Shown here: positions 34,414 to 64,000 of the stretch, in pieces
Layout of the letters: the number at the start of each line of letters is the position of its first letter
Position numbering within the stretch: the stretch's first letter is position 1
Origin: Candidatus Omnitrophota bacterium
GTDB taxonomy: Bacteria > Omnitrophota > Gorgyraeia > Zapsychrales > Fredricksoniimonadaceae
DNA: 64,000 nucleotides
NCBI GenBank assembly: GCA_015233675.1
Contig: JADFXH010000007.1
Location: forward strand, 44,162-108,161
Direction of reading: 5' to 3'
Notes under the pieces: generated by a model
The model's input: the letters and a program-made list of their open reading frames with translations, nothing else
The model's database searches: none
What the model was told of the DNA's origin: nothing
Program-made: the position numbers and the translations under genes

Positions 34414-36027
34414 TCAGGATTTTTCAACGAAGGCGCGTTGTAAATTTTCAAAATTAATTTTTACCTGAAAATATAATTTCTTGATCTCTTCAATACTCCC
34501 TTTCTCTCTTGCCAGATTGTTTATCTCTGCGGCAGGCGTCGACACCGAAGTCAGCCTCAAATTAGAAAAAACCCCCTTTAGTATGTGCGAAGTTTGATCG
34601 ATATGAGTAAAATCATTTTCTACAATCGCTTTTTCTAAATTAGCAACGTCTGCACTTCCTTCCTCCACAGCCCCCCGCGCTATTTTTAAGTAAATATCTA
34701 GGGGGCATTGCAATTCTTTAGAATTTTGCTGGACCATTTCTTCAAACGAATTGATGTTGTTTTCATTGTTCATAGTTTCCCCTTCGCTAACCCCTCCCGC
34801 CAAGGGGAGGGAATCTAATTTGTTATTGCCCCCTCTCTCCAGGGGCGTAGAATTTAATGAACTATTGCCCCCCCCCACCAAAGGTGTGGAATTTAATGAG
34901 CTATTATGGTCTTTCTCAAGTTCAAGAGCCTTGATCTGCAGGGCCTTGATCTGGTCCTCATATTTCTGGATCATCTGGTCCATATGAATGGATTTGCGGA
35001 ATTCCTCAAACTCCTTGCCTTGGGCAAACTGCGCTATCGACTCAACCGCGCCTTTTGTCTTTTCATCGATAAGCTCAAGTTTCATCTTGCCTTCTTGGAT
35101 ACGCAATTTGATCTTGTGCAGTTCTTTCTTTTCTTCATCCATCAGCTTTTCAATATGAAACATTTCAATCTCTGATTTTTTGAAACGGGCCATACGTTCG
35201 CTTGTATCCTTCTGTGCGAGCGTCATGCGCTCGATCTGGTCAGTAAGACGCTTAATCACACTTTCCTTAACTGCGAGTTCTTCATTATTTTGCGGTACGT
35301 TCTTGCCCTGTTGCTCCATCATTGACAGCTGGGCCTTGAGCTTCACGAGCTCTTGCTCTTTCTGGCCGGACTCGGTTGCTTTTGTCTCAAGCTCAGCTTT
35401 AAGATTCTTAACTTCACTCAGAAGACGATTGATCTCGGTTTCCTTGACTGCGATTTCTTCAGTTTTTTGTAAGGCGCTCTTGCTTTCTTCTCCTAATCTT
35501 ATCAGCTCAACCTTGAGCTTCACAATCTCCTGTTCTTTCAAAGTGAATTCGTTCGCCTTGCCCTGGAGTTTTACTTTAAGACTCTCCACTTCACTGAGCA
35601 GGACCCTGTTCTCGCTTTCCTTATGCGCAAGCTCTTCACTGTTTTGAGAAACGTTTTTACCCTGTTCCTCCATTTTTGCCAACTGGACCTTGAGTTTCGT
35701 AAGCTCTAGTTCTTTCTGGGAGGACTCAGTCGCCTTTGACTCGAATTCTTCTTTAATCCTGCGCACTTCACCGACCAAATCCCGAAGATCATTATTTTTT
35801 GAAAGCAATTCTTCATTTTTTCGTGAGGTCTCAGCTTGCAATCTGTCGGATTCTTCTTTTATTTGTTCCAGCTCTTTCTTAAATTTCTCTGGAGCGGTTT
35901 CCGCAAAACTCAACTGCTCCTTTAATATTTTGATCTGCTTGTTTAATTTTGCGTCCTCATTAATGATATAAATGACAACACCGATAGCAACCACAGCACA
36001 CGTTATTGAAAAAATTATTAGGATCAT
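34414..36027 (-). CDS. membrane-anchored long coiled-coil protein with C-terminal HPt (histidine phosphotransfer) domain
   Basis: 537 aa. Contains an N-terminal TM (ILIIFSITCAVVAIGVVIYII), about 340 residues of heptad-rich E/K/L/Q sequence with about 59-aa internal repeats, and a C-terminal SHILKGVFSNLRL HPt signature. It has a 4-nt overlap with the upstream gene. Confidence 0.7.
   Translation of the reverse strand: MILIIFSITCAVVAIGVVIYIINEDAKLNKQIKILKEQLSFAETAPEKFKKELEQIKEESDRLQAETSRKNEELLSKNNDLRDLVGEVRRIKEEFESKATESSQKELELTKLKVQLAKMEEQGKNVSQNSEELAHKESENRVLLSEVESLKVKLQGKANEFTLKEQEIVKLKVELIRLGEESKSALQKTEEIAVKETEINRLLSEVKNLKAELETKATESGQKEQELVKLKAQLSMMEQQGKNVPQNNEELAVKESVIKRLTDQIERMTLAQKDTSERMARFKKSEIEMFHIEKLMDEEKKELHKIKLRIQEGKMKLELIDEKTKGAVESIAQFAQGKEFEEFRKSIHMDQMIQKYEDQIKALQIKALELEKDHNSSLNSTPLVGGGNSSLNSTPLERGGNNKLDSLPLAGGVSEGETMNNENNINSFEEMVQQNSKELQCPLDIYLKIARGAVEEGSADVANLEKAIVENDFTHIDQTSHILKGVFSNLRLTSVSTPAAEINNLAREKGSIEEIKKLYFQVKINFENLQRAFVEKS
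34788..34904. repeat. three tandem 39-bp units of a hairpin repeat, in-frame inside the HPt gene
   Basis: The units at 34788-34826, 34827-34865 and 34866-34904 each have the form C-rich arm / G-rich arm / GAAT(C/T)TAAT. Unit A forms a 7-bp GC hairpin (34792-34811). They translate as SLNSTPLVGGGNS / SLNSTPLERGGNN / KLDSLPLAGGVSE. Confidence 0.8.
35224..35739. repeat. about 177-bp (59-aa) tandem coding repeats, ~3 copies, in the coiled-coil region
   Basis: Protein-level repeats are KATESSQKELELTKLKVQLAKMEEQGKNVSQNSEELAHKESENRVLLSEVESLKVKLQG, KANEFTLKEQEIVKLKVELIRLGEESKSALQKTEEIAVKETEINRLLSEVKNLKAELET and KATESGQKEQELVKLKAQLSMMEQQGKNVPQNNEELAVKESVIKRL. Confidence 0.75.
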
Positions 36028-36644
36028 GCCTTTTCTCCACCAGGCTTAGGTTTTAAGCCCTTTAGCCTGCGAAGTTTTTCAAGTGTCGAATCGATCCCCT
36101 TGGATTCCTTCTCTTCAACGCCGATATCTTCAAGATTGCTTTGGACCTCTTGGTGAACATAAAGCTTGGAAAGATCAATCGACTCAAATTCGGCTGCTTC
36201 TTTAAGCTCCTGTAGCTTGTACTCGCGGGCAGGGCCGCTGAGACCTTTGAGCTCCTTTAGCATACCTGCAATCTTGTCGGAAAGCTTCTCCGATACAGCA
36301 TCGAGGGAACCTTGAAGGATCGCCCCCATATGCGTCTTAAATTCCTCGAGCGTCATGCCAGCTTGCCCCGCTGCAGGAGATGCTACAAGCGGCGCCGGCG
36401 GGACCGATAACGGGACAGCAGGGACCGGCGGCTCTGGTAGCACAGTTCTGGGCTCCTGTATCCTATTTTTCACCCGGGCCGTCACCACATCCATAGAACC
36501 CACAAATTCACCCAGCAGTAATTCCATCTCCATGAGCTCATCATTAAGCTCCTTACGTGACTGCTGAGTGGCATTGATCCTTTGAAATAATCTTGGGACC
36601 AAAACCTCGGGATCATCTATGGTATTTGTATCTTCAGGGCTCAT
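36024..36644 (-). CDS. hypothetical protein with central proline-rich linker (cluster-specific)
   Basis: 206 aa with LPEPPVPAVPLSVPPAPLVASPAAG between two helical segments. It has 4-nt overlaps at both ends, with the actin-like gene upstream and the HPt gene downstream. Confidence 0.5.
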   Translation of the reverse strand: MSPEDTNTIDDPEVLVPRLFQRINATQQSRKELNDELMEMELLLGEFVGSMDVVTARVKNRIQEPRTVLPEPPVPAVPLSVPPAPLVASPAAGQAGMTLEEFKTHMGAILQGSLDAVSEKLSDKIAGMLKELKGLSGPAREYKLQELKEAAEFESIDLSKLYVHQEVQSNLEDIGVEEKESKGIDSTLEKLRRLKGLKPKPGGEKA

Positions 36645-38032
36645 TGGCTCCCACCATTAATTGCATTAAACAAACATCCGCGCACAACACTGGTAAAAGG
36701 CTCCTTGGCGTGAAGGATATTCCCCACGGGAAATCCGAATTTAACCGATTTAATCTCCTCTTGGACGACATCAATAAAACCTGGCACCATGGATGATCCG
36801 CCTGCAAAAACGATATCAGCCGGCTCTTTAAAATGGGGAGTATCCGTGCTTTTGCCAAAGACACGGGCCATGTTCTCAATAAGATAATGGATATAATTAC
36901 GGTAATAGATCGCGATCGCTTCTTCTTCGCGGTTGGCGGGGATCTTGATACTCATGCCATGTTCCTTGATAGTTGAGACACGGGTCGTAGGGACACCAAG
37001 GACAGTCGCCGCGCTTTTATCGATCCAGTCACCGCCGCGCGTGATCGAAAACGACAGCACAGGCACAGACTTAAACGCGGCACATATATTGACCATGCCG
37101 GCCCCACAGGAAATGCCGATACCCGTAAAATCCTGATCTTCCATCTCGGAAAGGACAACGGCATATCCTTCGTCGATAACTAAAGGCTTAAAACCGATAT
37201 TCTTTAGGATCCCTTCAAAAACACCACGGTGGTAGATCGTATCCTGGTCGCGGTCAAGAGGTTTAGCGGGTACTGAAAAACAACAAACCTCGCCTTTTTC
37301 GCGAGGCTCCCATAAAATATTTTTCACTAAAAGCTGGATGATCGGGATAGACTCGGCTTCAGAAGGGTTTAATATCCCCATGTTCATGGACCGTTGTGTT
37401 TCCCGCCCGAAAATGTCCGCAAGCTCCAAAGCCATGCCACCTAAAACATAAAGTTTGTCCTGCAGGGCAACATATTTGATCTTAAGGCGTGTTAACAAAT
37501 CCTTGGTCGATTGATCACAACGCACGGAAAGAAAGGCATTGCGTTCATTCTTCACAAATACCCGTTTGTCCTCAACCTCACGGCTTGCGACAATATAGGC
37601 TGTTCCCAAGTCCAGGCCGACGCCTGTCCTGACCGCAGCGTTCCTGCCGCGGCTCAGCGCCGGAAGTACAACCGTAGTGGTTTCTTCTTCTTTGACAGGA
37701 ACCGGTTCTTGCTCTTCGCCCACCTCCTCGACCGTCTCCTCTTCCATGACAAATGCAAGCTTCTCGACAGGTGGAGGGGGAAGCTCTTCCCTTAGAAAAA
37801 CAGGCGGCTTGACGTCGCGGCCCATGGCGCGAGCACGAATATATTCGTTAATGGCGCGCAGTTTCGCGCGCATTTCGTCAACGGGAATTTCCTGGTCCCC
37901 ACGAAGTCTTTGAGGTTTAATTTCTTTTTCGTTAGAAAACTGCGGGCTCTTGCTTAGGTTGGAATAACTCTTTATCTTATCATTTATCTTTAATAATCGC
38001 TTTCTGATATCCTGCAATTCCTCATCGACCAC
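36641..38032 (-). CDS. actin-like ATPase (MamK/Mad28/MreB superfamily) with ~140-aa N-terminal extension
   Basis: GTG start at 38032 with AGAGG 7 nt upstream. Actin-fold motifs are GVGLDLGTAYIV (phosphate 1), FTGIGISCGAGMVNI (phosphate 2) and IVFAGGSSMVPGF (adenosine). It is a clear paralogue of 38134-39123. Confidence 0.7.
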   Translation of the reverse strand: MVDEELQDIRKRLLKINDKIKSYSNLSKSPQFSNEKEIKPQRLRGDQEIPVDEMRAKLRAINEYIRARAMGRDVKPPVFLREELPPPPVEKLAFVMEEETVEEVGEEQEPVPVKEEETTTVVLPALSRGRNAAVRTGVGLDLGTAYIVASREVEDKRVFVKNERNAFLSVRCDQSTKDLLTRLKIKYVALQDKLYVLGGMALELADIFGRETQRSMNMGILNPSEAESIPIIQLLVKNILWEPREKGEVCCFSVPAKPLDRDQDTIYHRGVFEGILKNIGFKPLVIDEGYAVVLSEMEDQDFTGIGISCGAGMVNICAAFKSVPVLSFSITRGGDWIDKSAATVLGVPTTRVSTIKEHGMSIKIPANREEEAIAIYYRNYIHYLIENMARVFGKSTDTPHFKEPADIVFAGGSSMVPGFIDVVQEEIKSVKFGFPVGNILHAKEPFTSVVRGCLFNAINGGSQ

Positions 38033-38090
38033 TTACTTGCCTCTTTCTTTCCGGCTTCCAAAACTTTTCTCATATCTTCTTTCTATAAAA

Positions 38091-38122
38091 GATTGCTTCG
38101 TCGCTTCGCTCCTCGCAATGAC
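38091..38122. repeat. GTCAT-type palindromic-unit repeat, single arm
   Basis: GATTGCTTCGTCGCTTCGCTCCTCGCAATGAC lies in the gap between the two actin-like genes. It belongs to the same family as the units at 46335, 50001, 60165 and 61564. Confidence 0.6.
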
Positions 38123-38133
38123 ACAGGCTCTTC

Positions 38134-39123
38134 CTATTCTACCTCGCTTAAGCCCGCCAGGAGGCATCCTCTTGCGGTCGCGTACAACGGCTCATCGGCA
38201 AGCCTTACAGTATTGATCGGTATGGGGAAAGACAATTTCTTTAATTCTTCCTTAAAGACATCAACAAACCCGCCGATCATTGAGGAGCCTCCGGCACACA
38301 CAATATCAATGGGTTCCGGGAATTGCGGCATCTGTTCGGCTTTCTCAAATTTATTCTTGATATTGACCAGCGTATAATTAATCAGATTGCGATAATAGAT
38401 ACAGACCGCTTCTTCTTCGCGATTGGCGGGCTTGTTAATATTGATCCCTTTTTCCTTGATGGCGGTCGCCCGGTTGACCTTGATACCGAGAACTTGGGCC
38501 ACATTCTTGTCGATCCAGTCACCCGCTCGGCTCGTCGCAAAACTGATGGCAGGGATCGTCTTATAAGCAACACAAATATTAAACATACCGCCGCCGGCAG
38601 AAATACCGATACCGGTAAAATCCTTGTCTCCTAATTCCGCAAACACCACCGCATGGCCCTCATTCATGGGCTTACCGGTATATCCTAAATTCTTAAGCGC
38701 CCCGGCAATTACGCTTGAGTGGTAAACAATATTGAAGTTCGCATCAACAGGGTCAGCGGGAACGGAATAATAACAAAGCTGTCCTTTTTCATCAGGTTTT
38801 CCAAGGACCGCGTCGATCAAAAGCCCAAAAATGGGAACCGCATCCGCTTCACCGGGACTCATGACGCCATCCTGCATAGGCCGGCGCACGGTTTTATTCA
38901 TGATATTAGCAAGCTCAAAAGCAGAATCACCGAGGATATAAACCTTATTACCCATTTCGGCATATTGTACTTTTTGCTTTTTCAGCATGCTCTTGGTAAA
39001 CGAATTCGCTTCAATATCCAAGAACGTATGGCGCATCAGCTTCAACTTGATCTTGCCGTCTGCTCCCTGTTCAGAGCCAACCAGGTTCATTGTTCCGACG
39101 TCTAATCCCTTAACTTTTCCCAT
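38134..39123 (-). CDS. actin-like ATPase (MamK/Mad28/MreB superfamily)
   Basis: The start was moved to the ATG at 39121-39123 (AGGAG 8 nt upstream). Motifs are VKGLDVGTMNLV, RRPMQDGVM, FTGIGISAGGGMFNI and IVCAGGSSMIGGF. The track extension to 39186 covers a hairpin. Confidence 0.7.
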   Translation of the reverse strand: MGKVKGLDVGTMNLVGSEQGADGKIKLKLMRHTFLDIEANSFTKSMLKKQKVQYAEMGNKVYILGDSAFELANIMNKTVRRPMQDGVMSPGEADAVPIFGLLIDAVLGKPDEKGQLCYYSVPADPVDANFNIVYHSSVIAGALKNLGYTGKPMNEGHAVVFAELGDKDFTGIGISAGGGMFNICVAYKTIPAISFATSRAGDWIDKNVAQVLGIKVNRATAIKEKGININKPANREEEAVCIYYRNLINYTLVNIKNKFEKAEQMPQFPEPIDIVCAGGSSMIGGFVDVFKEELKKLSFPIPINTVRLADEPLYATARGCLLAGLSEVE

Positions 39124-39158
39124 ACGAAAAACTCCTTTTTTAACGCCCCCACCTAAGC

Positions 39159-39176
39159 GCCTGCCTGCTGGCAGGC
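39159..39176. repeat. intercistronic GC hairpin
   Basis: GCCTGCC-TGCT-GGCAGGC, a 7-bp stem with a 4-nt loop, lies between the coiled-coil gene stop (39211) and the actin-like gene start (39123). Confidence 0.5.
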
Positions 39177-39210
39177 TTCTCCCCATCAGTGAGGAGGAAT
39201 AATAGGATTC

Positions 39211-40023
39211 CTATTTATGTTTAGCTTTATAGTAATGTTCTCTGGCACGAGCCCTGGTATCAGCAAGCATCAGACGAATCTCATCAAGGCTCTCCTTGCT
39301 GCGCTCAAGTTCACGGCTGGCCTGGTCTCTTTCAGCAATGATACTGCCAAGTTGGGTTTCCGCCGCATCAAGTTTCCCTGAAATGGATTCTTTCTCATCC
39401 TCCAAAAGCGAAACCTGATGGTGCAGGCTCTGGATCGTCTTGTTAGCGCTCGAAAGCTCAAGCTCAATTTGTTCGATCCTGGTATCACGGGCTTCGCACT
39501 CTTTCTCAAGAGCCGCCATCTTGTTTGTCTGGTCCTTGATGACTGCTTCCCTGCCCTCAAGTTCTTCTTCCACAGACTTCATTTTTCCGACTGACTCAAG
39601 CCGTTCATTTTCAAGAAACTCGAGCTCGGAATTAAGCTCTTCCTGAGAAACCAGCAAACCTTTCATCTCTTTTAACTTTGCCTCGGCGATGGCCGCCTTT
39701 TCTTCCGCCTTTTGGCAACGCTCTTTTAAATTATTAATATCCTTTTCCTGGGCATCCTTAAGACTAAATGAAGCATCCAACTGCTTCTCTAGGTCTCCAA
39801 TGATTTCAAAAACGCTGACCTTCTCCTCCTCGGGAGACATGATATATTTTGTCGAATCCTTAATCTGCCTGACCGCAGAACGGATGGCCGCCTTTGATTC
39901 TGAGGACGTCGTTGCCGGCCTTTGGATCGCTGGCTTTATTGTTGACTGAAGAAGCGGATTATCTATGAGCTTGCTTTTTCTTGAATCCATGCCCCTGTTA
40001 GCTAACTTTTCTTGTTTTTCCAT
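39211..40023 (-). CDS. coiled-coil protein (cluster-specific)
   Basis: 270 aa, of which about 190 residues are E/K/L/Q-rich heptad sequence. Strong RBS AAGGAGA lies 6 nt before the ATG at 40023. It overlaps the ParA-like gene end by 26 nt. Confidence 0.55.
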   Translation of the reverse strand: MEKQEKLANRGMDSRKSKLIDNPLLQSTIKPAIQRPATTSSESKAAIRSAVRQIKDSTKYIMSPEEEKVSVFEIIGDLEKQLDASFSLKDAQEKDINNLKERCQKAEEKAAIAEAKLKEMKGLLVSQEELNSELEFLENERLESVGKMKSVEEELEGREAVIKDQTNKMAALEKECEARDTRIEQIELELSSANKTIQSLHHQVSLLEDEKESISGKLDAAETQLGSIIAERDQASRELERSKESLDEIRLMLADTRARAREHYYKAKHK

Positions 40024-40759
40024 TCAGGATCTCCTTTGCTAATTGACGGTAAGCCTCCGCCCCTTTGGAAGTCTTGTCATACTTATATATAGGAAGGTGG
40101 GCATTATGGGCTTCTTCTATCTTGATATTCTCCGGGATCACGGCCTTAAAAACCTTCTTGCCAAAATAATTCCTGATGGCGTCACGAGCCTCATTGGTCA
40201 CAACACGCTCGCGGTATCGGGTGATCACGACCCCGGTTATCTCAATATCGGAACCAAGTCCATGGCGGACATTCTCAACAATTTCTTCTAAAAGCTTGAT
40301 CCCTTTCAGGGAAAAAAATTCAGGGCAAATAGGCACAACAAGTTCATGACAAGCCGTCAGGGCATTGACAGTCAAAAGCCCCAAAGACGGCGGAGCGTCA
40401 ACAATCATAAAATCATACTTGAGCTTCTGCGTATAATGGTACAGCACTTTTTCGCGGCCGATATGCTCGTTAATCCGCAAAGTGGCGCCTGAGAGTTCAA
40501 TATCACTAGGCACGACGTCAATCCCAAAAGCATCGGAATGCTGGACGACGGTACGGATATCCATCTTATCGACAATGACATTATAAATATTAAATTCAAA
40601 ACGCTGGTTACCGAAGATGGCCGCCGTGGAAGAATACTGAGGGTCCATGTCAATTAAAATAACCTTTTTACCCGCCCGCGCAAGTTCAGCGGCCAGATTC
40701 AATGAAGTTGTGGTCTTGGCAACGCCGCCTTTTTGATTAGCGACACAGATTTTTCTCAT
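39998..40759 (-). CDS. ParA/MinD-family P-loop ATPase
   Basis: Deviant Walker A ANQKGGVAKTTTS with the signature lysine, IDMDPQ, and Walker B-like FMIVDAPPSLG. Confidence 0.85.
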   Translation of the reverse strand: MRKICVANQKGGVAKTTTSLNLAAELARAGKKVILIDMDPQYSSTAAIFGNQRFEFNIYNVIVDKMDIRTVVQHSDAFGIDVVPSDIELSGATLRINEHIGREKVLYHYTQKLKYDFMIVDAPPSLGLLTVNALTACHELVVPICPEFFSLKGIKLLEEIVENVRHGLGSDIEITGVVITRYRERVVTNEARDAIRNYFGKKVFKAVIPENIKIEEAHNAHLPIYKYDKTSKGAEAYRQLAKEILNGKTRKVS

Positions 40760-40763
40760 GGAT

Positions 40764-41066: not shown

Positions 41067-41078
41067 AGCTTCTCCTTA

Positions 41079-41267: not shown

Positions 41268-41269
41268 AG

Positions 41270-42589: not shown

Positions 42590-42634
42590 ATGCTTGACAC
42601 TCCATGCGGGCCGACACAAAATCGGCCCCTACAA

Positions 42635-42979: not shown

Positions 42980-42980
42980 A

Positions 42981-50845: not shown

Positions 50846-50886
50846 TTCAACACCCATCCTCCTATAAATAACCATTTTGTATGTCC

Positions 50887-50906: not shown

Positions 50907-50915
50907 AATAAAAAT

Positions 50916-51257: not shown

Positions 51258-51258
51258 T

Positions 51259-51813: not shown

Positions 51814-51823
51814 TGGGAGTCCT

Positions 51824-58375: not shown

Positions 58376-58637
58376 ATAACTCCTGGCCTTCTTCCGTGGA
58401 TTCGCTCACTTGGCGTTTCTTCTTCATCTTCGCGCCAAAATGGGTCATCAGCCAGAACATGTTCGATATTCCCAACAAATATGAAATCGCTATGATATAG
58501 ATTAACCCGCATTGCCTGTTTTTAATAAGCGGTATCCATATCCGTACAGGATCAGAGTTTTCAAAAACAAAAAATCCCAGGAAAATAAAAGCTAAAATCC
58601 CCGCGATTATTTTTATGACTGTCTTAACCTTCATCAA
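58359..58637 (-). CDS. small 2-TM hairpin membrane protein (LapA/DUF1049-like topology) with acidic tail
   Basis: 92 aa with two TM helices and a C-terminal SESTEEGQELFEDEA. It overlaps the MamM-like gene start by 17 nt. Confidence 0.45.
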   Translation of the reverse strand: MMKVKTVIKIIAGILAFIFLGFFVFENSDPVRIWIPLIKNRQCGLIYIIAISYLLGISNMFWLMTHFGAKMKKKRQVSESTEEGQELFEDEA

Positions 58638-58680: not shown

Positions 58681-59862
58681 TTAAAATATCGTTCCCGTTC
58701 CCGGCAATTTTTTCAACATAACATGGCAATTATTGCACTTGCCGCGATATTCATGGGGAGCAACAGCTCCCTTCATGATAGGCGGAGGATTTGGCAATAT
58801 GTCCCCGGCATCTGTCGGAAGCTGTCCGCCGGTCGTCATAATAATATGACAAACCGTGCACGCCTTGTTCCTGCTGCGATGAGGGCTTAAAGCGCCCGGC
58901 GTGATCGGCTGGGCCGCCTCATTTTGCGAAAAACCCATTGTCCTGACCGACGAGAAGGTAAATTCCATCAACTGCCCGCGCCTTGACACCAGCACTTGTG
59001 CTTTGTGCCTGTTCTTCACCCTTCTGGTGGCTTCAGTAAATGCCGCAAGGTCAGGTGTCGCAAAATCGTCCACCGCAACAACCATATCCCCTGCCAATAT
59101 CCCGGATTCAGCAGACTCAAGCGAAATCTCATCAACCAGAAGGCCTTTGGTATCAGGAGGAATTTTATATTCTTTAGACAACTCCGGCGTTGTTGGGATA
59201 AGCTCCAGCCCCAGCCAATGGCCTTCAATAAATTCTTTTTGTGCCGCGCCCTGTTCTTTAGGTGTCGGCAGATTAATTTGAGGCGCATTTACAGAAGGAG
59301 CAATCGCGCCCGCCTCGGCAGTTTCCGCAGGCGAACGGTTCGCGAATGCCGCAGGCAGCATTCCCTGAGGCTGATTAGAAGCAGGAGCCGCAACTGCCAG
59401 CGCACCCATTTTCGGGTCGATATTTAGCATTTTCTTGATCTTATCATGCAAGCCCAATTTATTCTCCATCGTGATATAAAGAGGCTGGCCGTTGCGAAGT
59501 ATGTCCAGAAGAAAGCCCGGTTCATGGCTTACTGTCCTTGCGACTTTAAGAAAATCTGATAAGTTTAATATTTTCTGATTATTGATCGCCTTGATAAGAT
59601 CACCACTACGAACGCCGGCTGAGTAGGCAGGGCCCTCACACCAATTGACCACAACACCTTGTTCATCCTTGGGAATGCCAAATTCCATCCTCATCGCAGG
59701 CGTCACATTCGAAACAGAGATCCCTCCCCATTCCGCATCTCCGGCGCCAATATGCATAAGCGCGGCAATAAAGAAAAGGGCCAAGGCCGCAAGCCCGATA
59801 ATCAGCCAAAGCTGCAACCACCTTTTTTGACGCATTTGTTTAAGTTCAAATTCAATAGCCAT
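58681..59862 (-). CDS. mamP: MamP-like protein: TM anchor, two PDZ domains, two magnetochrome (CxxCH) motifs
   Basis: PDZ cores are GVVVNWCEGPAYSAGVRSGDLIKAINN and GLLVDEISLESAESGILAGDMVVAVDD. The magnetochrome-type motifs are SPHRSRNKACTVCH (CxxCH at 58846-58860) and APHEYRGKCNNCH (58723-58737). Confidence 0.7.
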   Translation of the reverse strand: MAIEFELKQMRQKRWLQLWLIIGLAALALFFIAALMHIGAGDAEWGGISVSNVTPAMRMEFGIPKDEQGVVVNWCEGPAYSAGVRSGDLIKAINNQKILNLSDFLKVARTVSHEPGFLLDILRNGQPLYITMENKLGLHDKIKKMLNIDPKMGALAVAAPASNQPQGMLPAAFANRSPAETAEAGAIAPSVNAPQINLPTPKEQGAAQKEFIEGHWLGLELIPTTPELSKEYKIPPDTKGLLVDEISLESAESGILAGDMVVAVDDFATPDLAAFTEATRRVKNRHKAQVLVSRRGQLMEFTFSSVRTMGFSQNEAAQPITPGALSPHRSRNKACTVCHIIMTTGGQLPTDAGDILPNPPPIMKGAVAPHEYRGKCNNCHVMLKKLPGTGTIF

Positions 59863-59871: not shown

Positions 59872-60135
59872 CTATTTCCCTAACTTTTCAGAGTCGATAT
59901 TAAACCTCTCAATCGCGGTATTGCATTCTTTGCAAACCCACAGATCCCTCTTTGAACCCAGCATATACAAACCGATAAAGAGAAGAGGAATACCTAGCAC
60001 CATGCCAATCCAAAAAAGCGTGGCCAGGATTCCGGCGATGATAAAAAACCCGGCGACCTTACGGTTGTAGCGAGGGCCTGAATACTGCTGCATTTCACCG
60101 TTACAATGTGTGCAAATGATTGGCTTACCTGCCAT
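59872..60135 (-). CDS. small membrane protein: split zinc-ribbon (CxxC ... CxxC) around a 2-TM hairpin
   Basis: 87 aa. CTHCNG is followed by two TM helices (FFIIAGILATLFWIGMVLGIPLLFIGLYML) and then CKECNT. Confidence 0.5.
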   Translation of the reverse strand: MAGKPIICTHCNGEMQQYSGPRYNRKVAGFFIIAGILATLFWIGMVLGIPLLFIGLYMLGSKRDLWVCKECNTAIERFNIDSEKLGK

Positions 60136-60251: not shown

Positions 60252-61538
60252 TTATTTCCCCCCACCAATAACAATACGCGCAGAATTCGGGTCCTGCTGT
60301 CCTGCAAAATTCTGCTGCGTTTGATTGTTCTGCATCATATTCTGATTATTCTGCGCTCCCATTGAAGATTCCAATATCTGGTGGCAATTGGAACACACGC
60401 CCCGATAAGCATGCGGCAGGGTCGCGTCGCGCGTGATCGGAGGAGCCTGTGTTGTTGGCTGCGTCATAGCGACCTGATTGCCATAATTGCCGTTGCCGTA
60501 ATAGGCATTCTGATTTTGAGCAGGCACCATAGCGGCCTGATTGCCATAATTGCCGTTACCGTAATATCCATTGGGCTGAACATTATATTGAAAATTTTGA
60601 TATTGAGGAGCCATCTGGTTATATTGCGGGGCGGTAGGCTGCATATTATTGGGCTGTTGATAGTAGCCTGGCTGTTGATACATTCCTGCCTGCCCCTGCA
60701 TGGCACCAGCTTGTATTCTTGGAATTGGGCAATATGGGTTGTTCCCCATGCCCTGTCCCTGCATATATTGACCACCCTGACCATAGGCCACTTGTGTATT
60801 CTCAACAACGCCTTGAGGCGCTTGAAAATTCTGATATTGGGGAGCCATCTGATTATATGATTGAGCGCCAGCCTGCATTCTAGGAATCGGGCAGTACGGG
60901 TTATTTCCCATGCCCTGACCCTGCATATATTGACCACCCTGACCAAACGCCACCTGTGTATTGTCAACAACACCCTGAGGTGTTTGCACAGGAACATAGG
61001 CAGGTTGAACTGTGCCATCAACAGGCTGAGGTGATGCTGATATCCTTGCCTGCCTGTAAAGCTTGACGACTTTCTGTGCACGGCCCTGATATCCGCCGAA
61101 TACCCTGATACCGAATTGCATTAAAATGTTATAATCTTGCGGAACGATATTCCCGACAATAACAGCTTCTTCCCCTTTACTGGCAACCAGATAAACAAGC
61201 TGAGTACCGGAGGCCCCGCCTCGATAGGGATTCTTGACGGCTTCAACAAGTTTCCCTGACAAAGGATTGACCACCAGGAAATAACGCGCTTCGTTTAATG
61301 TCGGAGCCACGTTAGATGCCAGGGACTGCCCGTCGGTTGCAATTACAATCATCCCGCAGGCGGGATTGCCCTGCATGGCATTTTTGGCATCTGGTGAAAA
61401 TAAGGCATAAAGGCCAACAATCAGCACCACCAAAATCGCACCAAAAATGAAAAAGGTGTTCAGGTCGGTATTTTTAAACTTCGACATGAATTCCTCAAAG
61501 GATTTTTCAAAACTTTTCCCTTGCGGTTTTTTTACCAT
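60252..61538 (-). CDS. TM anchor + NifX/NifB-C-like (Nitro_FeMo-Co type) domain + Q/N/G/Y-rich repeat region + single magnetochrome motif
   Basis: The ATG at 61538 has GGAGGG 5 nt upstream. The NifX-like region is IVIATDGQSLASNVAPTLNEARYFLVVNP...KNPYRGGASGTQLVYLVASKGEEAVIVGNIVPQDYNILMQFGIRVF. The low-complexity region has 54-aa repeats. The C-terminal LPHAYRGVCSNCH carries CxxCH at 60381-60395. Confidence 0.6.
   Translation of the reverse strand: MVKKPQGKSFEKSFEEFMSKFKNTDLNTFFIFGAILVVLIVGLYALFSPDAKNAMQGNPACGMIVIATDGQSLASNVAPTLNEARYFLVVNPLSGKLVEAVKNPYRGGASGTQLVYLVASKGEEAVIVGNIVPQDYNILMQFGIRVFGGYQGRAQKVVKLYRQARISASPQPVDGTVQPAYVPVQTPQGVVDNTQVAFGQGGQYMQGQGMGNNPYCPIPRMQAGAQSYNQMAPQYQNFQAPQGVVENTQVAYGQGGQYMQGQGMGNNPYCPIPRIQAGAMQGQAGMYQQPGYYQQPNNMQPTAPQYNQMAPQYQNFQYNVQPNGYYGNGNYGNQAAMVPAQNQNAYYGNGNYGNQVAMTQPTTQAPPITRDATLPHAYRGVCSNCHQILESSMGAQNNQNMMQNNQTQQNFAGQQDPNSARIVIGGGK
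60702..60980. repeat. 162-bp (54-aa) tandem coding repeat, ~1.7 copies
   Basis: PQGVVDNTQVAFGQGGQYMQGQGMGNNPYCPIPRMQAGA... is repeated as PQGVVENTQVAYGQGGQYMQGQGMGNNPYCPIPRIQAGA. The DNA copies are near-identical (for example CCCATGCCCTG(A/T)CCCTGCATATATTGACCACCCTGACC). Confidence 0.8.
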
Positions 61539-61563
61539 ATAATCCCTCCATATGCCGCTGATT

Positions 61564-61657
61564 GTCATCCTGAGTGCAACGAAGGATCTTAAGACTCTTA
61601 AGATTCTTCGGCAAATATAACGATTGCCCGGTTTAAGGGCCTTCGCCTCAGAATGAC
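61564..61657. repeat. GTCAT-type palindromic element, two inverted arms with an insert
   Basis: GTCATCCTGAGTGCAACGAAGGATCTTAAG ... GGCCTTCGCCTCAGAATGAC lies in the gap between the PDZ gene stop (61664) and the start at 61538. Confidence 0.65.
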
Positions 61658-61663
61658 GAAAGA

Positions 61664-62299
61664 TTACCTAAAAATCGGCCCATAACGGACCCCTTGACCA
61701 ACAAGAGGCGAACCGAGCTGCCAGCTTCCCTTGTTCGGCCCCGCGAGAGGCCCGTACTGATACGTGAAAGGAATGGTCAAATAAAAAATGTTCCCATCCC
61801 GAAAAATTTCCAACAAGATACCTTCACGGTATTGAACCTTATTGGCCACTTCGATAAACTCGCGGGCAGTCGGGACCGCCTTGCGGCTGATCGAAATAAT
61901 CACATCGCCGGTTTTGACGCCGTACTGCTGCGCCAACTCTTTGCCTTCATCCACAACGAACATCCCTTTGATATTTTTGGGGATCTTAAAATCTTTCCTG
62001 ATAGTCCTTGAGACCGGCGCGATTTCCATGCCGACCCATATCGCACTGTCCCCTCTTTCAATAACCATGCCATTTTGCACAGGTCGAGTTTCCTGTCCTT
62101 CCGGAAAAACTTCTAAAGGAAGGATCTCTAACGATGACAGAAGCCAAAAGAATAAAATAATCGCTGCAATCAAAATCCCTACAAAAAGCACCGGTTGTTT
62201 GGCCCAGTAATCTTTGAGCTTATCAAAAAACTTTTCAAATTTGGATTCGAGAACTGACACTGGTTTTGCTGACACTGGTTTTGCTGGTTTTTTCTTCAT
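61664..62299 (-). CDS. membrane-anchored PDZ-domain protein
   Basis: A Lys-rich N-terminus and a TM (VLFVGILIAAIILFFWLL) are followed by the PDZ core GMFVVDEGKELAQQYGVKTGDVIISISRK. It has a 4-nt overlap with the protease gene. Confidence 0.6.
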   Translation of the reverse strand: MKKKPAKPVSAKPVSVLESKFEKFFDKLKDYWAKQPVLFVGILIAAIILFFWLLSSLEILPLEVFPEGQETRPVQNGMVIERGDSAIWVGMEIAPVSRTIRKDFKIPKNIKGMFVVDEGKELAQQYGVKTGDVIISISRKAVPTAREFIEVANKVQYREGILLEIFRDGNIFYLTIPFTYQYGPLAGPNKGSWQLGSPLVGQGVRYGPIFR

Positions 62300-63681
62300 T
62301 GTAGCCTCACTAGGATCTCATCTTCCCTGCCGTTTCTTAAAATACGCACGTTAACATTCTCGCCGGCCCTGAAATTCTGGACGACTTTCGGAATTTCATC
62401 TTTGTCCGTAATCGTAACACCAGCGACTGAAAGAACCACATCTCCGCGCTGAATACCGGCATCTTCAGCCGGCGAACCATGCATGACCCTGTTGACTAAA
62501 ACACCCTGAGTATCTCTTAACCCGAATTGTTGAGCAATGATGGAATCCATGGGCATGACCTCTAGCCCGAAACGGATCGGAACGGGAGACCTCTTCACGT
62601 TAGGGATATCAGCAGGCAAAGCGGCTAGCATCCCTTTTTGATCGACGGGGAAAGAATAATTCTTGCCGAGATTCCTTGATAAAAAATCTTTGCAGTCATT
62701 GATCGGAATAGCAAAACCTGTACCGCTAAAAACACCTGTCGGCGCGTAGATCGCCGTATTCATCCCGATCACCTCGCCCTTAAGATTGACAAGCGGGCCT
62801 CCGGAGGAACCGCGGTTGATGGCCGTATCGGTCTGAAAAAGATTACCATACTGGACGCCTTCAATCACAATGGACTTGCGTATGCCGCTTATGATGCCGC
62901 TCGTGACCGTCTGTTCAATACCAAAAGGACTTCCTACAGCGACCACATAATCACCGATCTGGCTGAAGGCTGAATCACCTATCGCGGCTTCAGGAAACGG
63001 GCCGTCACCCCTAAGCTTAAGAAGGGCCAGATCCATCTTAGGGTCCTGTGCCACCACATCCGCACGAAAATCACGGGGAGGAGTTCCAAAAATAGTAATA
63101 ACAATATCCGTTGCTTGCGCAATCACATGAAAATTCGTCAGGACAAAACCGCGCTCATCAACGATCATGCCGGCCCCGATATTCTCGAAACCTTTATTTT
63201 CAATGAATTTATCAATGGCACCGCTAAAAGGGGGGACAAACTGCATGTTCTGAGCATCAACAGGTTTTGCTGTAGGCATGCCAACAACGCGCGTGGCATG
63301 CACATCACACACAGAAGGGATAATAGCATTAACAGCGTTTTTTAATGAATCCTGGAAACCGGCATTGACCTGATTGCCGACAAGTTGCATATTGCCATAA
63401 GGGGTGGCCTTGGTAATGGCAGCGAGAGAATAATTCCTGTCAGCGGGAGCTCCATTCATTGCGGCCGGCACAACACCTTTAGGAAAAGACGGTTCACCGG
63501 GGATGGGCAGTTTGAGCTTAGGAGCTTCCACTTCACCTGCCCCCTGCAAGATATCTTCACGCTTCATCACGACCCAGAAGACCGACATGACTGAAAGGGC
63601 AACGACACCGATGATCCATGGGCCTATCGGCTGGTGGCAAAATCCGTCTTCAATTTCTTCCGGTTCTTTATCAAGCGGCAT
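62296..63681 (-). CDS. mamE: membrane-anchored HtrA/trypsin-like serine protease with C-terminal PDZ (MamE-like)
   Basis: A TM (WIIGVVALSVMSVFWVV) is followed by the catalytic triad contexts TNFHVIA, DLALLKL and NRGSSGGPLVN. The PDZ domain is GVLVNRVMHGSPAEDAGIQRGDVVLSVAG. No CxxCH is present in this ORF. Confidence 0.65.
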   Translation of the reverse strand: MPLDKEPEEIEDGFCHQPIGPWIIGVVALSVMSVFWVVMKREDILQGAGEVEAPKLKLPIPGEPSFPKGVVPAAMNGAPADRNYSLAAITKATPYGNMQLVGNQVNAGFQDSLKNAVNAIIPSVCDVHATRVVGMPTAKPVDAQNMQFVPPFSGAIDKFIENKGFENIGAGMIVDERGFVLTNFHVIAQATDIVITIFGTPPRDFRADVVAQDPKMDLALLKLRGDGPFPEAAIGDSAFSQIGDYVVAVGSPFGIEQTVTSGIISGIRKSIVIEGVQYGNLFQTDTAINRGSSGGPLVNLKGEVIGMNTAIYAPTGVFSGTGFAIPINDCKDFLSRNLGKNYSFPVDQKGMLAALPADIPNVKRSPVPIRFGLEVMPMDSIIAQQFGLRDTQGVLVNRVMHGSPAEDAGIQRGDVVLSVAGVTITDKDEIPKVVQNFRAGENVNVRILRNGREDEILVRLQ

Positions 63682-63720
63682 AAGAATGTATATCTTTCTT
63701 TTTAATAAAACCGTTCCGGG

Positions 63721-63939
63721 TCAAAAAACCAACTTCTCATCTGTCACGCCACCACCAGCTTGCTGGCTGGGAAAAGCTGCCTGCATGGCGGCTCGCGGCG
63801 GCACCTGAGGCAGCCTGCGATGCCGGCGGCTTCCTCTGGATTCGAAAAAAATGGCACTCGCAATAATGGCACAGACCGCGAGGATGACCAAATATCCGAA
63901 CCAAGGACTAAAACATTTGTCTTTCTTTTTACCGATCAT
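63721..63939 (-). CDS. small single-TM protein (cluster-specific)
   Basis: 72 aa with the TM WFGYLVILAVCAIIASAIFF and a basic, Pro/Gln-rich tail. It is the first complete gene of the array in this window. Confidence 0.4.
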   Translation of the reverse strand: MIGKKKDKCFSPWFGYLVILAVCAIIASAIFFESRGSRRHRRLPQVPPRAAMQAAFPSQQAGGGVTDEKLVF

Positions 63940-64000
63940 GATACCTCAAGAGGAGATCTATTTTTTGTCCTTCTGGAATTTCAAGCCTGTATTAATAGCG

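What the first reader, a model, noticed from the sequence alone, without database searches (positions are those of the whole stretch)
34414..64000. Magnetosome gene cluster of the deep-branching (mad-gene) type, truncated at the right edge
Seen: about 30 kb of same-strand genes with overlapping or very short junctions. They encode the following.
- A trypsin-like protease with an intact H/D/S triad plus PDZ (62296-63681).
- Two proteins with P-H-x(4-6)-C-x-x-C-H magnetochrome-type motifs (58723-58860 and 60381-60395).
- Two tandem CDF transporters that both start with CxxC.
- A 5-TPR protein, a LemA protein, a TauE permease and FeoB.
- Two actin-like ATPases, a ParA ATPase and three HEAT-repeat proteins.

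Established: MamE/P/M/B/A/Q/O/K together with mad genes (HEAT-repeat, actin-like Mad28, ParA-like and FeoB-like members) define the magnetosome clusters of Desulfobacterota, Nitrospirota and Omnitrophota-type magnetotactic bacteria. The magnetochrome domain is essentially restricted to such bacteria.

Inference: this is a magnetosome organelle cluster. It continues beyond 64000, because the tail of a further ORF ends at 63958. The flanking genes do not resemble those of the cultured model magnetotactic bacteria, so the host lineage and gene order may be undescribed.
Basis: partly seen in the sequence, partly recalled or inferred. Interest (0 to 1): 0.9.

Follow-up and report, generated by a model that had tools for sequence, protein, structure and literature searches.

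The report
Omnitrophota magnetosome gene cluster, already published
This 30-kb stretch is a real gene cluster for building magnetosomes (the membrane-enclosed iron crystals that let some bacteria sense the geomagnetic field), but it comes from an uncultured Omnitrophota genome already deposited and catalogued as magnetotactic, so it is a correct identification rather than a discovery.

Summary
Three magnetochrome motifs sit exactly where reported and pass Pfam's threshold. One carrier matches the MamP crystal structure (E=5e-39). The other ORFs have MamM, MamB, MamA, MamQ and MamN as best curated family.

The "undescribed host and gene order" inference fails. Several proteins are identical to NCBI entries MBF0571457-MBF0571467 from a "Candidatus Omnitrophica bacterium" MAG, in the accession series of Lin et al. 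2020 (168 MGC-bearing genomes from magnetically enriched samples). The gene order recurs in 21 public Omnitrophota MAGs.

Refinements:
- The ORF cut at the right edge is the end of a MamI homologue. In relatives it is the first gene of the cluster, so only about 130 bp are missing.
- There is no MamK. The two actin-like genes are Volactin-family paralogues (Mad28-like).
- The "TPR/LemA/permease" list also hides a PDZ-MamN fusion, a lineage-restricted NifX-magnetochrome protein and a DtxR-type regulator.
- The HEAT-ParA-actin tail is a conserved but separable module.

Novelty: already known. Interest is low to moderate.

The parts
63958..64000 (-). 3' end (last 13 codons plus stop) of a mamI homologue; probably the first gene of the cluster, with about 130 bp missing beyond the window
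   Evidence: The tail '...AINTGLKFQKDKK*' matches the C-terminus of a ~56-aa two-helix protein found directly upstream of the 72-aa gene in every one of the 20 loci that carry that gene. Full-length copies from relatives hit NCBIfam MamI NF040963 at E 2e-12 to 4e-11, 43-47 bits, cut-off 80.
63721..63939 (-). 72-aa single-pass membrane protein, conserved in Omnitrophota MGCs; no known family
   Evidence: 36-74% identical copies sit at the same position in 20 loci. No Pfam or NCBIfam hit.
62296..63681 (-). MamE-like HtrA protease: N-terminal anchor, trypsin domain with an intact H/D/S triad, one PDZ, no magnetochrome
   Evidence: Trypsin_2 104.6 bits and PDZ_2 48.4 bits. MamE NF040960 260.7 bits, against generic DegP 290.8. 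Triad checked. Exact match to MBF0571467.1.
61664..62299 (-). Membrane-anchored PDZ-only protein (211 aa)
   Evidence: PDZ_1 and PDZ_2 hits are weak. Best NCBIfam hit is the MamP PDZ region, 39 bits. Conserved in relatives.
60252..61568 (-). Membrane-anchored NifB/NifX-like (Nitro_FeMo-Co) domain, Q/N/G/Y-rich repeats and one C-terminal magnetochrome; a lineage-restricted redox protein
   Evidence: MCR 35.4 bits (GA 30.4) and Nitro_FeMo-Co 31.2 bits (GA 26.3). Only 58 homologues in 5.8 billion proteins; every one that carries an organism name is from Omnitrophica except one Planctomycetes and one Patescibacteria entry, and about half have no name.
59872..60135 (-). 87-aa membrane protein with two CxxC pairs (zinc-ribbon-like), conserved in the cluster
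   Evidence: CTHC at residue 8 and CKEC at residue 68. 50-91% identical copies in relatives.
58681..59862 (-). MamP: anchor, two PDZ domains, two magnetochrome haem-binding motifs (iron oxidase)
   Evidence: PDB 4JJ0 MamP E=5.1e-39, 137 bits. MCR 54.2 bits in 2 stretches. NCBIfam MamP 207.6 bits. Exact match to MBF0571463.1, named 'magnetochrome domain-containing protein'.
58359..58637 (-). 92-aa membrane protein with an acidic tail; unknown
   Evidence: Conserved position between mamP and mamM in relatives. No family hit.
57479..58375 (-). MamM-like CDF iron transporter
   Evidence: NCBIfam MamM 238.6 bits, MamB 187.2, FieF 111.6. Cation_efflux plus ZT_dimer.
56557..57468 (-). MamB-like CDF iron transporter
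   Evidence: NCBIfam MamB 226.3 bits, MamM 220.7, FieF 103.6. 31% identical to its neighbour. Exact match to MBF0571460.1.
55613..56515 (-). MamA-like TPR protein with an 87-residue charged N-terminal extension
   Evidence: NCBIfam MamA 142.3 bits, covering profile positions 10-203 of 204; the next family scores 73.8 bits. MamA crystal structures 4XI0, 5LFL and 3VTX are among the PDB hits.
54737..55600 (-). MamQ-like LemA protein
   Evidence: LemA 102.7 bits. MamQ NF040966 at 111.1 bits is the only NCBIfam hit.
52919..54721 (-). PDZ domain fused to a MamN-like CitMHS/ArsB-type permease
   Evidence: NCBIfam MamN 244.6 bits over profile positions 4-435 of 437. CitMHS 156.4 bits and PDZ_2 36.3 bits. 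Exact match to MBF0571457.1.
51824..52864 (-). TauE/SafE permease, equivalent to the C-terminal half of MamO
   Evidence: TauE 207.1 bits. It aligns to MamO profile positions 373-648 at only 30.9 bits, so the assignment rests mainly on context.
51259..51831 (-). Membrane-anchored PDZ protein (190 aa)
   Evidence: PDZ_2 37.6 bits. Conserved in relatives.
50048..51305 (-). Two conserved genes: a 129-aa protein of unknown family and a 296-aa AmaP-like membrane anchor with an acidic tail
   Evidence: AmaP NF033218 50.7 bits, cut-off 55. Both are conserved in order in L008, L006, L019 and L022.
48013..49977 (-). FeoB ferrous-iron transporter
   Evidence: TIGR00437 336.3 bits, above its 315.65 cut-off. 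Present at this position in L008, L019, L022 and L041; absent in the aquifer/UBA10174 relative.
47131..48000 (-). FecR-domain membrane protein
   Evidence: FecR 45.2 bits. Conserved next to feoB or the HEAT genes.
46382..47140 (-). DtxR/MntR-family metal-dependent regulator with a C-terminal FeoA (SH3-like) domain
   Evidence: Fe_dep_repr_C 75.2 bits and FeoA 36.3 bits. MntR and DtxR models 60-67 bits.
42404..46271 (-). HEAT protein 1 (373 aa, acidic N-terminal half), a 163-aa protein, HEAT protein 2 (565 aa, coiled-coil N-terminal half), and small genes of ~115 and 71 aa; mad-like chain-organisation candidates
   Evidence: HEAT_2 67.6 and 43.7 bits. The same series of genes occurs in ERZ1426828 and nDJH15_bin6.
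36024..42304 (-). Separable module: HEAT protein 3, 62-aa and 100-aa genes, ParA ATPase, 270-aa coiled-coil protein, actin-like 1, actin-like 2, 206-aa protein
   Evidence: HEAT_2 71 bits, AAA_31 167 bits, and Volactin PF25216 268.6 and 273.7 bits. The whole module is 36-90% identical in the aquifer/UBA10174 relative, where it lies ~22 kb upstream of the mam operon on the same contig. It is contiguous, as here, in two other lineages. Neither actin is MamK: 29 and 24 bits against a cut-off of 400.
34414..36027 (-). 537-aa coiled-coil protein with a C-terminal Hpt phosphotransfer domain; last gene of the conserved array, leading into a two-component block
   Evidence: Hpt 26.9 bits (GA 24.6). 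A partial homologue sits at the same position in relatives.

Best explanation
The region is the magnetosome gene cluster of an uncultured magnetotactic member of phylum Omnitrophota (class koll11, order UBA10015). It is transcribed right to left, starting with mamI just beyond the window.

What is shown and what is inferred. The domain composition and family assignments are shown here. The functions below are inferred by homology with Magnetospirillum and Desulfovibrio magneticus RS-1.

1. Vesicle formation and protein sorting. MamI, MamQ, MamB and MamA would remodel and coat an inner-membrane invagination.
2. Iron supply. The MamM/MamB CDF pair and FeoB would load iron, possibly under control of the DtxR-type regulator and the FecR-domain protein.
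3. Lumenal chemistry. Several proteins carry a single N-terminal membrane anchor, so their soluble domains would face the vesicle lumen.
   - MamP (two PDZ, two c-type haem magnetochromes) would set the Fe(II)/Fe(III) ratio.
   - The NifX-magnetochrome protein may contribute to the same redox task.
   - The MamE-like HtrA protease and three PDZ-only proteins would process and scaffold.
   - The PDZ-MamN permease and the TauE (MamO C-terminal-like) permease would move protons or anions.
4. Chain organisation. Three HEAT/coiled-coil proteins, a ParA ATPase, a coiled-coil protein and two paralogous non-MamK actin-like ATPases would assemble and position the crystal chain. This corresponds to the role of Mad23/25/26/28 in RS-1.

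The mineral, magnetite or greigite, is not determined.
For: Mam-specific signals:
- Three magnetochrome motifs pass Pfam's gathering score.
- MamP matches PDB 4JJ0 at E=5e-39.
- The best curated family is MamM, MamB, MamA, MamQ, MamP, MamN and MamI for the respective ORFs. Each clearly beats the generic housekeeping models, for example MamM 238.6 bits against FieF 111.6.

Operon-like packing: 33 co-directional genes with short or overlapping junctions.

Source:
- Four proteins are identical to NCBI MBF0571457, -460, -463 and -467 on a 124,925-bp contig of a Candidatus Omnitrophica MAG.
- The nearest loci are Lin et al. 2020 MAGs nDJH2_bin13 and nDJH2_bin18, with MamP 86% and 84% identical.
- That study sequenced magnetically enriched cells and kept only genomes checked for an MGC (PMC7602337).

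Conservation:
- The order mamI-72aa-mamE-PDZ-NifX/MCR-87aa-mamP-92aa-mamM-mamB-mamA-mamQ-PDZ/mamN-TauE-PDZ... is kept in L008, L006, L019 and L022 at 38-93% identity.
- The feoB-to-actin part is kept in ERZ1426828 and nDJH15_bin6.
- 21 of the 34 GTDB-representative loci found with a MamP profile are Omnitrophota; the rest are mostly Planctomycetota.

Functional analogy: genetics in RS-1 assigns chain assembly to the coiled-coil proteins Mad20/23/25/26 (Mad23 also has HEAT repeats) and the actin-like Mad28 (PMC12748827).
Against: - No Mam protein reaches NCBI's curated equivalog cut-off: MamP 207.6/300, MamM 238.6/350, MamB 226.3/350, MamA 142.3/200, MamQ 111.1/250, MamN 244.6/500, MamE 260.7/800, MamI 43-47/80.
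- MamE is not separable from generic DegP by score, and the TauE protein barely matches MamO at 30.9 bits.
- Orthology of the HEAT, ParA and actin genes to named Mad proteins was not tested against reference sequences.
- Close homologues of the actin (~60% identity) occur outside any MGC in a 7.9-Mb genome, and the named hits at that identity are Planctomycetota.
- No phenotype is tied to this genome. The link to one particular MAG (nDJH13_bin20) is an inference.
Confidence: 0.93

Rival explanations
1. The cluster is a real MGC by descent but silent or non-functional in this organism. It would be a carried or decaying island that does not produce magnetosomes.
For: There is no phenotype for this genome. 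MamK is missing from the window. All equivalog cut-offs are missed. Silent MGCs in non-magnetic bacteria have been reported; this is my own knowledge and was not checked here.
Against: - All about 33 ORFs are intact and tightly packed.
- Proteins are 61-93% identical to nDJH2_bin18, with order preserved across two Omnitrophota families, which indicates purifying selection.
- The catalytic triad and all CxxCH haem motifs are intact.
- The related MAGs came from cells collected by their magnetic response.
Confidence: 0.05
2. The left third (HEAT3-ParA-coiled coil-two actins-206 aa-Hpt protein, 34414-42304) is a general cytoskeletal or positioning module of Omnitrophota and other PVC bacteria. 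On this reading it merely neighbours the magnetosome genes and is not dedicated to them.
For: - The actin belongs to Pfam Volactin, not MamK. It has 1313 homologues, about 60% identical in Planctomycetota, one of them in a 7.9-Mb genome with no magnetosome genes nearby.
- In the aquifer/UBA10174 relative the module lies about 22 kb upstream of the mam operon, separated by kinase, P-type ATPase and SpoIIE/STAS genes.
Against: - The module is directly contiguous with the mam and HEAT genes here, in ERZ1426828 and in nDJH15_bin6, a different family.
- Even in the rearranged relative it remains on the same contig and strand.
- No Omnitrophota locus with the module but without mam genes was found; only a handful were examined.
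- Literature assigns actin-like Mad28 and coiled-coil or HEAT-bearing Mad23/25/26 to magnetosome chain organisation.
Confidence: 0.15
3. This is a generic envelope-stress and iron-homeostasis locus (HtrA, CDF, LemA, FeoB, TPR) with no relation to magnetosomes.
For: MamE scores lower than the generic DegP model, and TauE and LemA are broad families.
Against: - Magnetochrome domains are above threshold in two proteins.
- MamP matches a solved structure.
- MamM, MamB, MamA and MamN outscore every generic model two-fold or more.
- A MamI homologue sits at the head of the cluster.
- NCBI itself names the proteins 'magnetochrome domain-containing'.
Confidence: 0.01

Closest known systems
Magnetosome gene clusters of Omnitrophota MAGs from Lin et al. 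2020 (Microbiome 8:152, PRJNA400260), e.g. nDJH2_bin18 and nDJH2_bin13
   Same: The gene content and order from mamI to feoB are the same, at 61-93% protein identity. The NCBI accession series and naming are the same. The GTDB family is the same, UBA10015/GCA-002753745.
   Different: The species differs. The window's own genome is not among the GTDB representatives. It is probably nDJH13_bin20 of the same study, by elimination on GC and scaffold size; this is an inference.
MGC of the aquifer MAG GCA_001804395.1 (MHFX01000005.1), also assembled as UBA10174 (DOGZ01000006.1)
   Same: The mam operon has the same order, 47-83% identical. The HEAT3-ParA-actin module is 36-90% identical.
   Different: - The module lies about 22 kb upstream of the mam operon instead of directly downstream.
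- feoB and the DtxR-type gene are absent between the AmaP-like and FecR genes.
- There is an extra 88-aa gene before the 87-aa gene.
mamAB-type operon of Magnetospirillum (MamI, E, K, L, M, N, O, P, A, Q, R, B, S, T)
   Same: Homologues of MamI, E, M, N, the O C-terminal half, P, A, Q and B are present, with the same domain logic: CDF pair, TPR coat, LemA, HtrA, magnetochrome.
   Different: - No MamK, L, J, R, S or T was detected.
- MamE lacks magnetochromes.
- MamO is represented only by a TauE permease.
- MamN carries an N-terminal PDZ.
- All scores are below the equivalog cut-offs.
mad gene set of Desulfovibrio magneticus RS-1 and other deep-branching magnetotactic bacteria (Mad23/25/26 coiled-coil proteins, Mad23 also with HEAT repeats; Mad28 actin-like; Mad17/30 iron uptake)
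   Same: The cluster has the same kinds of protein: three HEAT/coiled-coil proteins, non-MamK actin-like ATPases, a ParA-type ATPase and FeoB, placed next to the mam genes.
   Different: - Orthology to named Mad proteins was not tested against reference sequences.
- Here the actin is duplicated in tandem.
- A coiled-coil-Hpt protein and a two-component block follow.
MGCs of magnetotactic Bdellovibrionota (ISME Commun 2026, PMC13200544)
   Same: They have no canonical mamK but do have mad28, and runs of two-component genes sit next to the cluster. The window shows the same two features.
   Different: The phylum differs and their mamAB part resembles that of BW-1. The sequences were not compared here.

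Membership tests
Magnetosome gene cluster (MGC) | Physical clustering of the core mam genes (mamA, B, M, P, Q, E, O, I and K, stated to be present in all MGCs; PMC7449369) | tested here: met
   A, B, M, P, Q, E, the O C-terminal half and I (partial) are collinear within 12 kb. K is the exception; see its own row.
Magnetosome gene cluster (MGC) | Magnetochrome (MCR, PF18509) domain proteins | tested here: met
   54.2 bits (two copies, MamP) and 35.4 bits (NifX-MCR protein), against a gathering score of 30.4. The motifs were read directly from the sequence.
Magnetosome gene cluster (MGC) | MamK actin-like protein | tested here: not met
   The two actin-like proteins score 29.3 and 23.7 bits against NCBIfam MamK subfamily NF040964, cut-off 400, and E about 1e-6 against MamK structures. 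Nothing MamK-like lies elsewhere in the 64 kb. The rest of the genome could not be searched.
Magnetosome gene cluster (MGC) | The host makes magnetosomes and shows magnetotaxis | not testable with these tools
   Only indirect evidence: the related MAGs, and probably this one, come from magnetically enriched cells.
NCBIfam equivalogs MamA/B/M/P/Q/E/N/I (built on the cultured Pseudomonadota proteins) | Whole-protein score at or above the curated cut-off | tested here: not met
   Scores against cut-offs: 142.3/200, 226.3/350, 238.6/350, 207.6/300, 111.1/250, 260.7/800, 244.6/500 and 43-47/80. These are best hits and homologous, but not equivalogs by NCBI's thresholds, as expected for a deep-branching lineage.
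MamP | PDZ domain followed by two magnetochrome CxxCH motifs, with similarity to the solved MamP structure | tested here: met
   PDB 4JJ0 E=5.1e-39 over residues 207-383, covering the PDZ and both haem motifs.
mad genes (Mad23/25/26, Mad28, Mad17/30 and others) | Orthology to the named Mad proteins of Desulfobacterota and Nitrospirota | not tested
   No reference Mad sequences could be retrieved, and the homologue lists carried no Mad names. Only domain type and position in the cluster agree.
Pfam Volactin (PF25216) actin-like family | Score above the gathering threshold over the full profile | tested here: met
   268.6 and 273.7 bits against 35, over profile positions 3-321 of 321. The two proteins are 44% identical paralogues.
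Magnetite-type versus greigite-type MGC | Phylogenetic placement of MamA/B/M/Q with reference magnetite or greigite clades | not tested
   No labelled reference set was available. The literature disagrees for Omnitrophota: mostly magnetite-type in PMC7602337, but clustering with the greigite group in PMC7449369.

The most novel reading that the evidence does not exclude
Omnitrophota magnetosome chains may be organised without MamK. The organising system would be self-contained: two tandem Volactin-type actins, a ParA ATPase and HEAT/coiled-coil adaptors. A coiled-coil-Hpt protein and the adjoining block of response regulators, kinases and hemerythrin would wire it to a phosphorelay, so that organelle positioning or synthesis is signal-controlled, for example by O2 or iron. 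The same lineage would use a NifX-like cluster-binding domain fused to a magnetochrome as an extra redox or iron-handling step.
Probability: 0.2. Interest if true: 0.55.

Novelty: already known. Interest (0 to 1): 0.3.

Why it matters
Magnetosomes are among the best-studied bacterial organelles, and Omnitrophota are among the least-studied lineages that make them. A complete, contiguous cluster is useful reference material for comparative work and for synthetic transfer of magnetosome genes. This cluster runs about 30 kb, from all but roughly 130 bp of mamI to the last positioning gene, and includes both flanks. As a scan result it is not new. The sequence is public, it belongs to a dataset assembled specifically to catalogue such clusters, and its gene order is shared by some twenty other public genomes. 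The value added here is delimitation and annotation detail, not discovery.

Tried and rejected
1. Non-magnetotactic relatives carrying the tail module. I hypothesised that the HEAT3-ParA-actin module occurs in relatives without magnetosome genes, because three assemblies of one relative showed it next to NAPRTase and defence-type genes. This was rejected. MamP of that organism lies on the same contig 22 kb away, and two other lineages have the contiguous arrangement.

2. Fetching the window's own contig to read past 64000.
- The look-up of encoding contigs has no record for its MamE or MamP.
- The genome is not among the GTDB representatives.
- The upstream boundary was therefore inferred from relatives.

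3. Naming the MAG from NCBI accession order. The blocks are not monotonic: anchors MBF0503612, MBF0511557 and MBF0594750 do not fit. I rely instead on elimination by GC and scaffold size, which points to nDJH13_bin20 and remains an inference.

4. Looking for Mad names among homologues of the actin, MamP and the NifX-MCR protein. None was shown. A supplement of PMC10653835 gave only accession numbers, no sequences.

5. Small proteins (72, 87, 92, 129 and 62 aa) against MamI/MamL-type models at E up to 5-10. Nothing was found.

6. Promoter and terminator scan of 46-64 kb. Counts were at chance level: 36 promoter-like sites against 27±5 expected, and 18 terminator-like sites against 20±4. One further call failed on a range limit.

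7. Rfam and tRNA scans of the whole window found nothing.

8. A full-text search for UBA10174, GCA_001804395, MHFX01 and nDJH13_bin20 found no paper.

Full report
**What is in the sequence**

Between 63939 and 34414 every long ORF lies on the minus strand. Junctions run from -47 to +116 nt, apart from one mis-called start. The same co-directional packing continues leftwards through a two-component block as far as 27052.

- The protease at 62296-63681 has Trypsin_2 and PDZ domains and an intact His185/Asp217/Ser293 triad.
- The CxxCH motifs lie at 58723-58737, 58846-58860 and 60381-60395, exactly as reported. Each is preceded by P-H-x(5-6).
- Pfam's magnetochrome model (PF18509) scores 54.2 and 35.4 bits against a gathering score of 30.4.
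- The two tandem CDF genes begin with CEAC and CIRC.
- TPR, LemA, TauE, FeoB, ParA, three HEAT_2 proteins and two actin-like ATPases are all present.

**Is it a magnetosome cluster?**

Yes.

Against NCBI's curated family library, the best hit for each core ORF is the magnetosome family:

| ORF | Best magnetosome family (bits) | Comparison (bits) |
|---|---|---|
| first CDF | MamM 238.6 | FieF 111.6 |
| second CDF | MamB 226.3 | FieF 103.6 |
| TPR protein | MamA 142.3 | next family 73.8 |
| LemA protein | MamQ 111.1 | only hit |
| PDZ/magnetochrome protein | MamP 207.6 | - |
| PDZ-CitMHS permease | MamN 244.6 (nearly whole profile) | - |

The MamP candidate also matches the crystal structure of MamP from strain MO-1 (4JJ0) at E=5e-39, across the PDZ and both haem motifs.

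Two assignments rest mostly on context.
- The protease scores slightly better against generic DegP (290.8 bits) than against MamE (260.7 bits).
- The TauE permease aligns only weakly to the C-terminal half of MamO, at 30.9 bits.

None of the proteins reaches NCBI's equivalog cut-offs. Those models are built on cultured Pseudomonadota. The proteins are therefore homologues in a distant lineage, not equivalogs in NCBI's strict sense.

**Where it comes from**

Four of ten proteins looked up are identical to NCBI entries MBF0571457, -460, -463 and -467. All sit on one 124,925-bp contig of a MAG named Candidatus Omnitrophica bacterium. NCBI already calls the MamP homologue a "magnetochrome domain-containing protein".

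A MamP-profile scan of one genome per GTDB species returned 34 loci.
- 21 are Omnitrophota. 15 of these carry the isolate names used by Lin et al. 2020 (nDJH2_bin13, nDJH2_bin18 and so on).
- The remainder are mostly Planctomycetota.

That study sequenced magnetically enriched cells and kept 168 genomes that were manually checked for a magnetosome cluster. Twenty of them are Omnitrophota.

The window's own genome is not among the GTDB representatives. Among the 20 Omnitrophota MAGs in the paper's Supplementary Table 2, nDJH13_bin20 fits.
- Its GC is 42.8%.
- Its largest scaffold is 321,724 bp, so a 124,925-bp contig is possible.
- It belongs to family GCA-002753745.
- It is absent from the representative set.
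- The statistics of one other absent MAG, nS315_bin24, were not read, so it is not excluded.

This identification is an inference. An argument from accession order proved unreliable.

**Conservation**

In nDJH2_bin18 (L008) the genes from the 72-aa ORF to feoB appear in the same order at 61-93% protein identity. The same order holds in the aquifer MAG GCA_001804395.1/UBA10174 (L006), in Ki2-D4_bin-0675 (L019) and in a bin labelled Planctomycetales (L022).

The second half, from feoB through the FecR-domain and DtxR-type genes, the three HEAT genes, ParA, the coiled-coil gene and the two actins to the downstream response-regulator kinases, is the same in an ENA contig (ERZ1426828). It is also the same in nDJH15_bin6, a member of a different family.

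**The right edge**

The ORF cut by the end of the window ends "...AINTGLKFQKDKK*". Every one of the 20 loci that carry the 72-aa gene has, directly upstream of it, a roughly 56-codon gene. That gene encodes a two-helix protein with the same C-terminus.

Full-length copies hit only the MamI model, at E 2e-12 to 4e-11 and 43-47 bits, with a cut-off of 80.

Upstream of this gene the relatives diverge.
- In nDJH2_bin18 there are an HTH gene, ApbE, STAS/anti-sigma genes and MlaDEF.
- In several other relatives there is a 4Fe-4S ferredoxin-like gene.

The cluster therefore begins with mamI, and the window lacks only about 130 bp of it.

**The left end and the actin question**

Both actin-like proteins belong to Pfam Volactin (269 and 274 bits). 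They are 44% identical paralogues, and they score only 29 and 24 bits against the MamK subfamily model, whose cut-off is 400. No MamK-like gene lies elsewhere in the window.

The actin has 1313 detectable homologues. Some are about 60% identical in Planctomycetota, and one sits in a 7.9-Mb genome with no magnetosome genes nearby.

I first suspected that the HEAT3-ParA-coiled coil-actin module was independent of magnetosomes, because a close relative shows it next to unrelated genes. That relative, however, carries its mam operon 22 kb further along the same contig. The module is therefore separable by rearrangement, but in every case examined it stays linked to mam genes.

The last conserved gene, 34414-36027, is a coiled-coil protein with a C-terminal Hpt domain. 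It leads into response regulators, a hemerythrin and a 1481-aa hybrid kinase. Absence of mamK together with mad28, and runs of two-component genes beside the cluster, have been described for magnetotactic Bdellovibrionota.

**How it probably works**

The domain facts are shown here; the functions are inferred from Magnetospirillum and RS-1 genetics.
1. MamI, MamQ, MamB and MamA form and coat the vesicle.
2. MamM/MamB and FeoB supply iron. A DtxR-type regulator and a FecR-domain protein are possible iron-responsive controls.
3. A set of singly anchored lumenal proteins controls redox state, pH and protein maturation. These are the MamE-like protease, three PDZ-only proteins, MamP, the NifX-magnetochrome protein, the PDZ-MamN permease and the TauE permease.
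4. The HEAT/coiled-coil proteins, ParA and the two actins assemble and position the chain.

The N-terminal hydrophobic anchors were read directly from the translations. The mineral type is open. Lin et al. class most Omnitrophota clusters as magnetite-type, whereas Uzun et al. found Omnitrophica Mam proteins grouping with greigite-type lineages.

**Verdict**

The identification is correct and the evidence is strong. The cluster is already public and belongs to a known kind, so the novelty rating is "already known" and the interest is low to moderate.

The useful additions are:
- the exact start of the cluster (mamI);
- the absence of MamK;
- the PDZ-MamN fusion;
- the lineage-restricted NifX-magnetochrome protein, with only 58 homologues, every named one Omnitrophica apart from one Planctomycetes and one Patescibacteria entry, and about half unnamed;
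- the separable actin/ParA module;
- in related genomes only, a haem-biosynthesis block inserted directly after mamP.

Noticed in passing
L017 11155-21156 (nDJH15_bin6); also L009, L010, L012, L013, L015, L023: In seven related Omnitrophota clusters about 10 kb is inserted directly after mamP. It encodes a haem pathway of the siroheme-dependent type: SirC-like dehydrogenase, a cytochrome c assembly protein, HemA, HemC, CobA/HemD, two radical-SAM/SPASM enzymes, HemB, NirDL-like siroheme decarboxylase and HemL. The block sits next to the c-haem magnetochrome genes. The window and its nearest relatives lack it.
   Followed up: partly
L004 6336-13563 and L006 5387-21077 (both on MHFX01000005.1, GCA_001804395.1; the same organism as UBA10174): A 2016 aquifer MAG carries a full Omnitrophota magnetosome cluster. 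Its HEAT3-ParA-actin module is moved about 22 kb upstream of the mam operon, and feoB and the DtxR-type gene are absent. A full-text search found no paper naming this genome.
   Followed up: partly
L001 10001-11062 (7.87-Mb genome, ERZ25072999): A Volactin-family actin 60% identical to the window's actin-like protein lies among kinase, sigma-54 activator, HSP70 and PrkA genes, with no magnetosome genes within 10 kb. A published MamK ancestral reconstruction lists sequences from Phycisphaera mikurensis and Planctomycetes sp. Poly30 as 'MamK' (PMC10653835, Table S1A). These are cultured species that I believe are not magnetotactic. The boundary between MamK, Mad28 and general PVC actins looks blurred.
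   Followed up: partly
window 27052-34390 (minus strand): Directly downstream of the cluster, on the same strand and tightly packed, lie a response-regulator kinase (388 aa), two response regulators, a hemerythrin (140 aa) and a 1481-aa hybrid sensor kinase. The first is 68% identical to its counterpart in the aquifer relative, and the block recurs after the cluster in nDJH15_bin6. It may be regulatory input to the cluster.
   Followed up: partly
window 52919-54721: The MamN-like permease carries an N-terminal membrane anchor plus a PDZ domain. The fusion is conserved at 45-89% identity in Omnitrophota clusters and about 30% in Planctomycetota loci.
   Followed up: partly
window 60252-61568: The NifX-magnetochrome protein contains two near-identical ~40-residue repeats (…PQGVV-NTQVA-GQGGQYMQGQGMGNNPYCPIPR-QAGA) inside a long Q/N/G/Y/P-rich region. 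Homologues vary greatly in length (about 260-610 aa) and some carry zinc-ribbon domains.
   Followed up: no
window 34824-34905: A 39-nt tandem repeat (2.1 copies, 81% match) lies inside the coiled-coil-Hpt gene. It encodes the repeated peptide GGGNSSLNSTPL.
   Followed up: no
window 36001-64000 versus 1-36000: The cluster has 45-49% G+C, whereas most of the left flank has 38-45%. This modest shift could reflect an island history or simply the gene content.
   Followed up: no
window 42635-43156: The mechanical ORF overlaps the end of the 565-aa HEAT gene by 176 nt. An internal Met at residue 59 would give a gene of about 115 aa abutting the HEAT gene's stop, matching the 108-122 aa genes in relatives.
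   Followed up: partly
window 16759-24356: The left flank holds a 1661-aa PAS/GAF/GGDEF/EAL signalling protein and a membrane H+-pyrophosphatase. FabF, PurU and a Na+/H+ exchanger lie further left. These are ordinary housekeeping and signalling genes, and none is magnetosome-related.
   Followed up: yes
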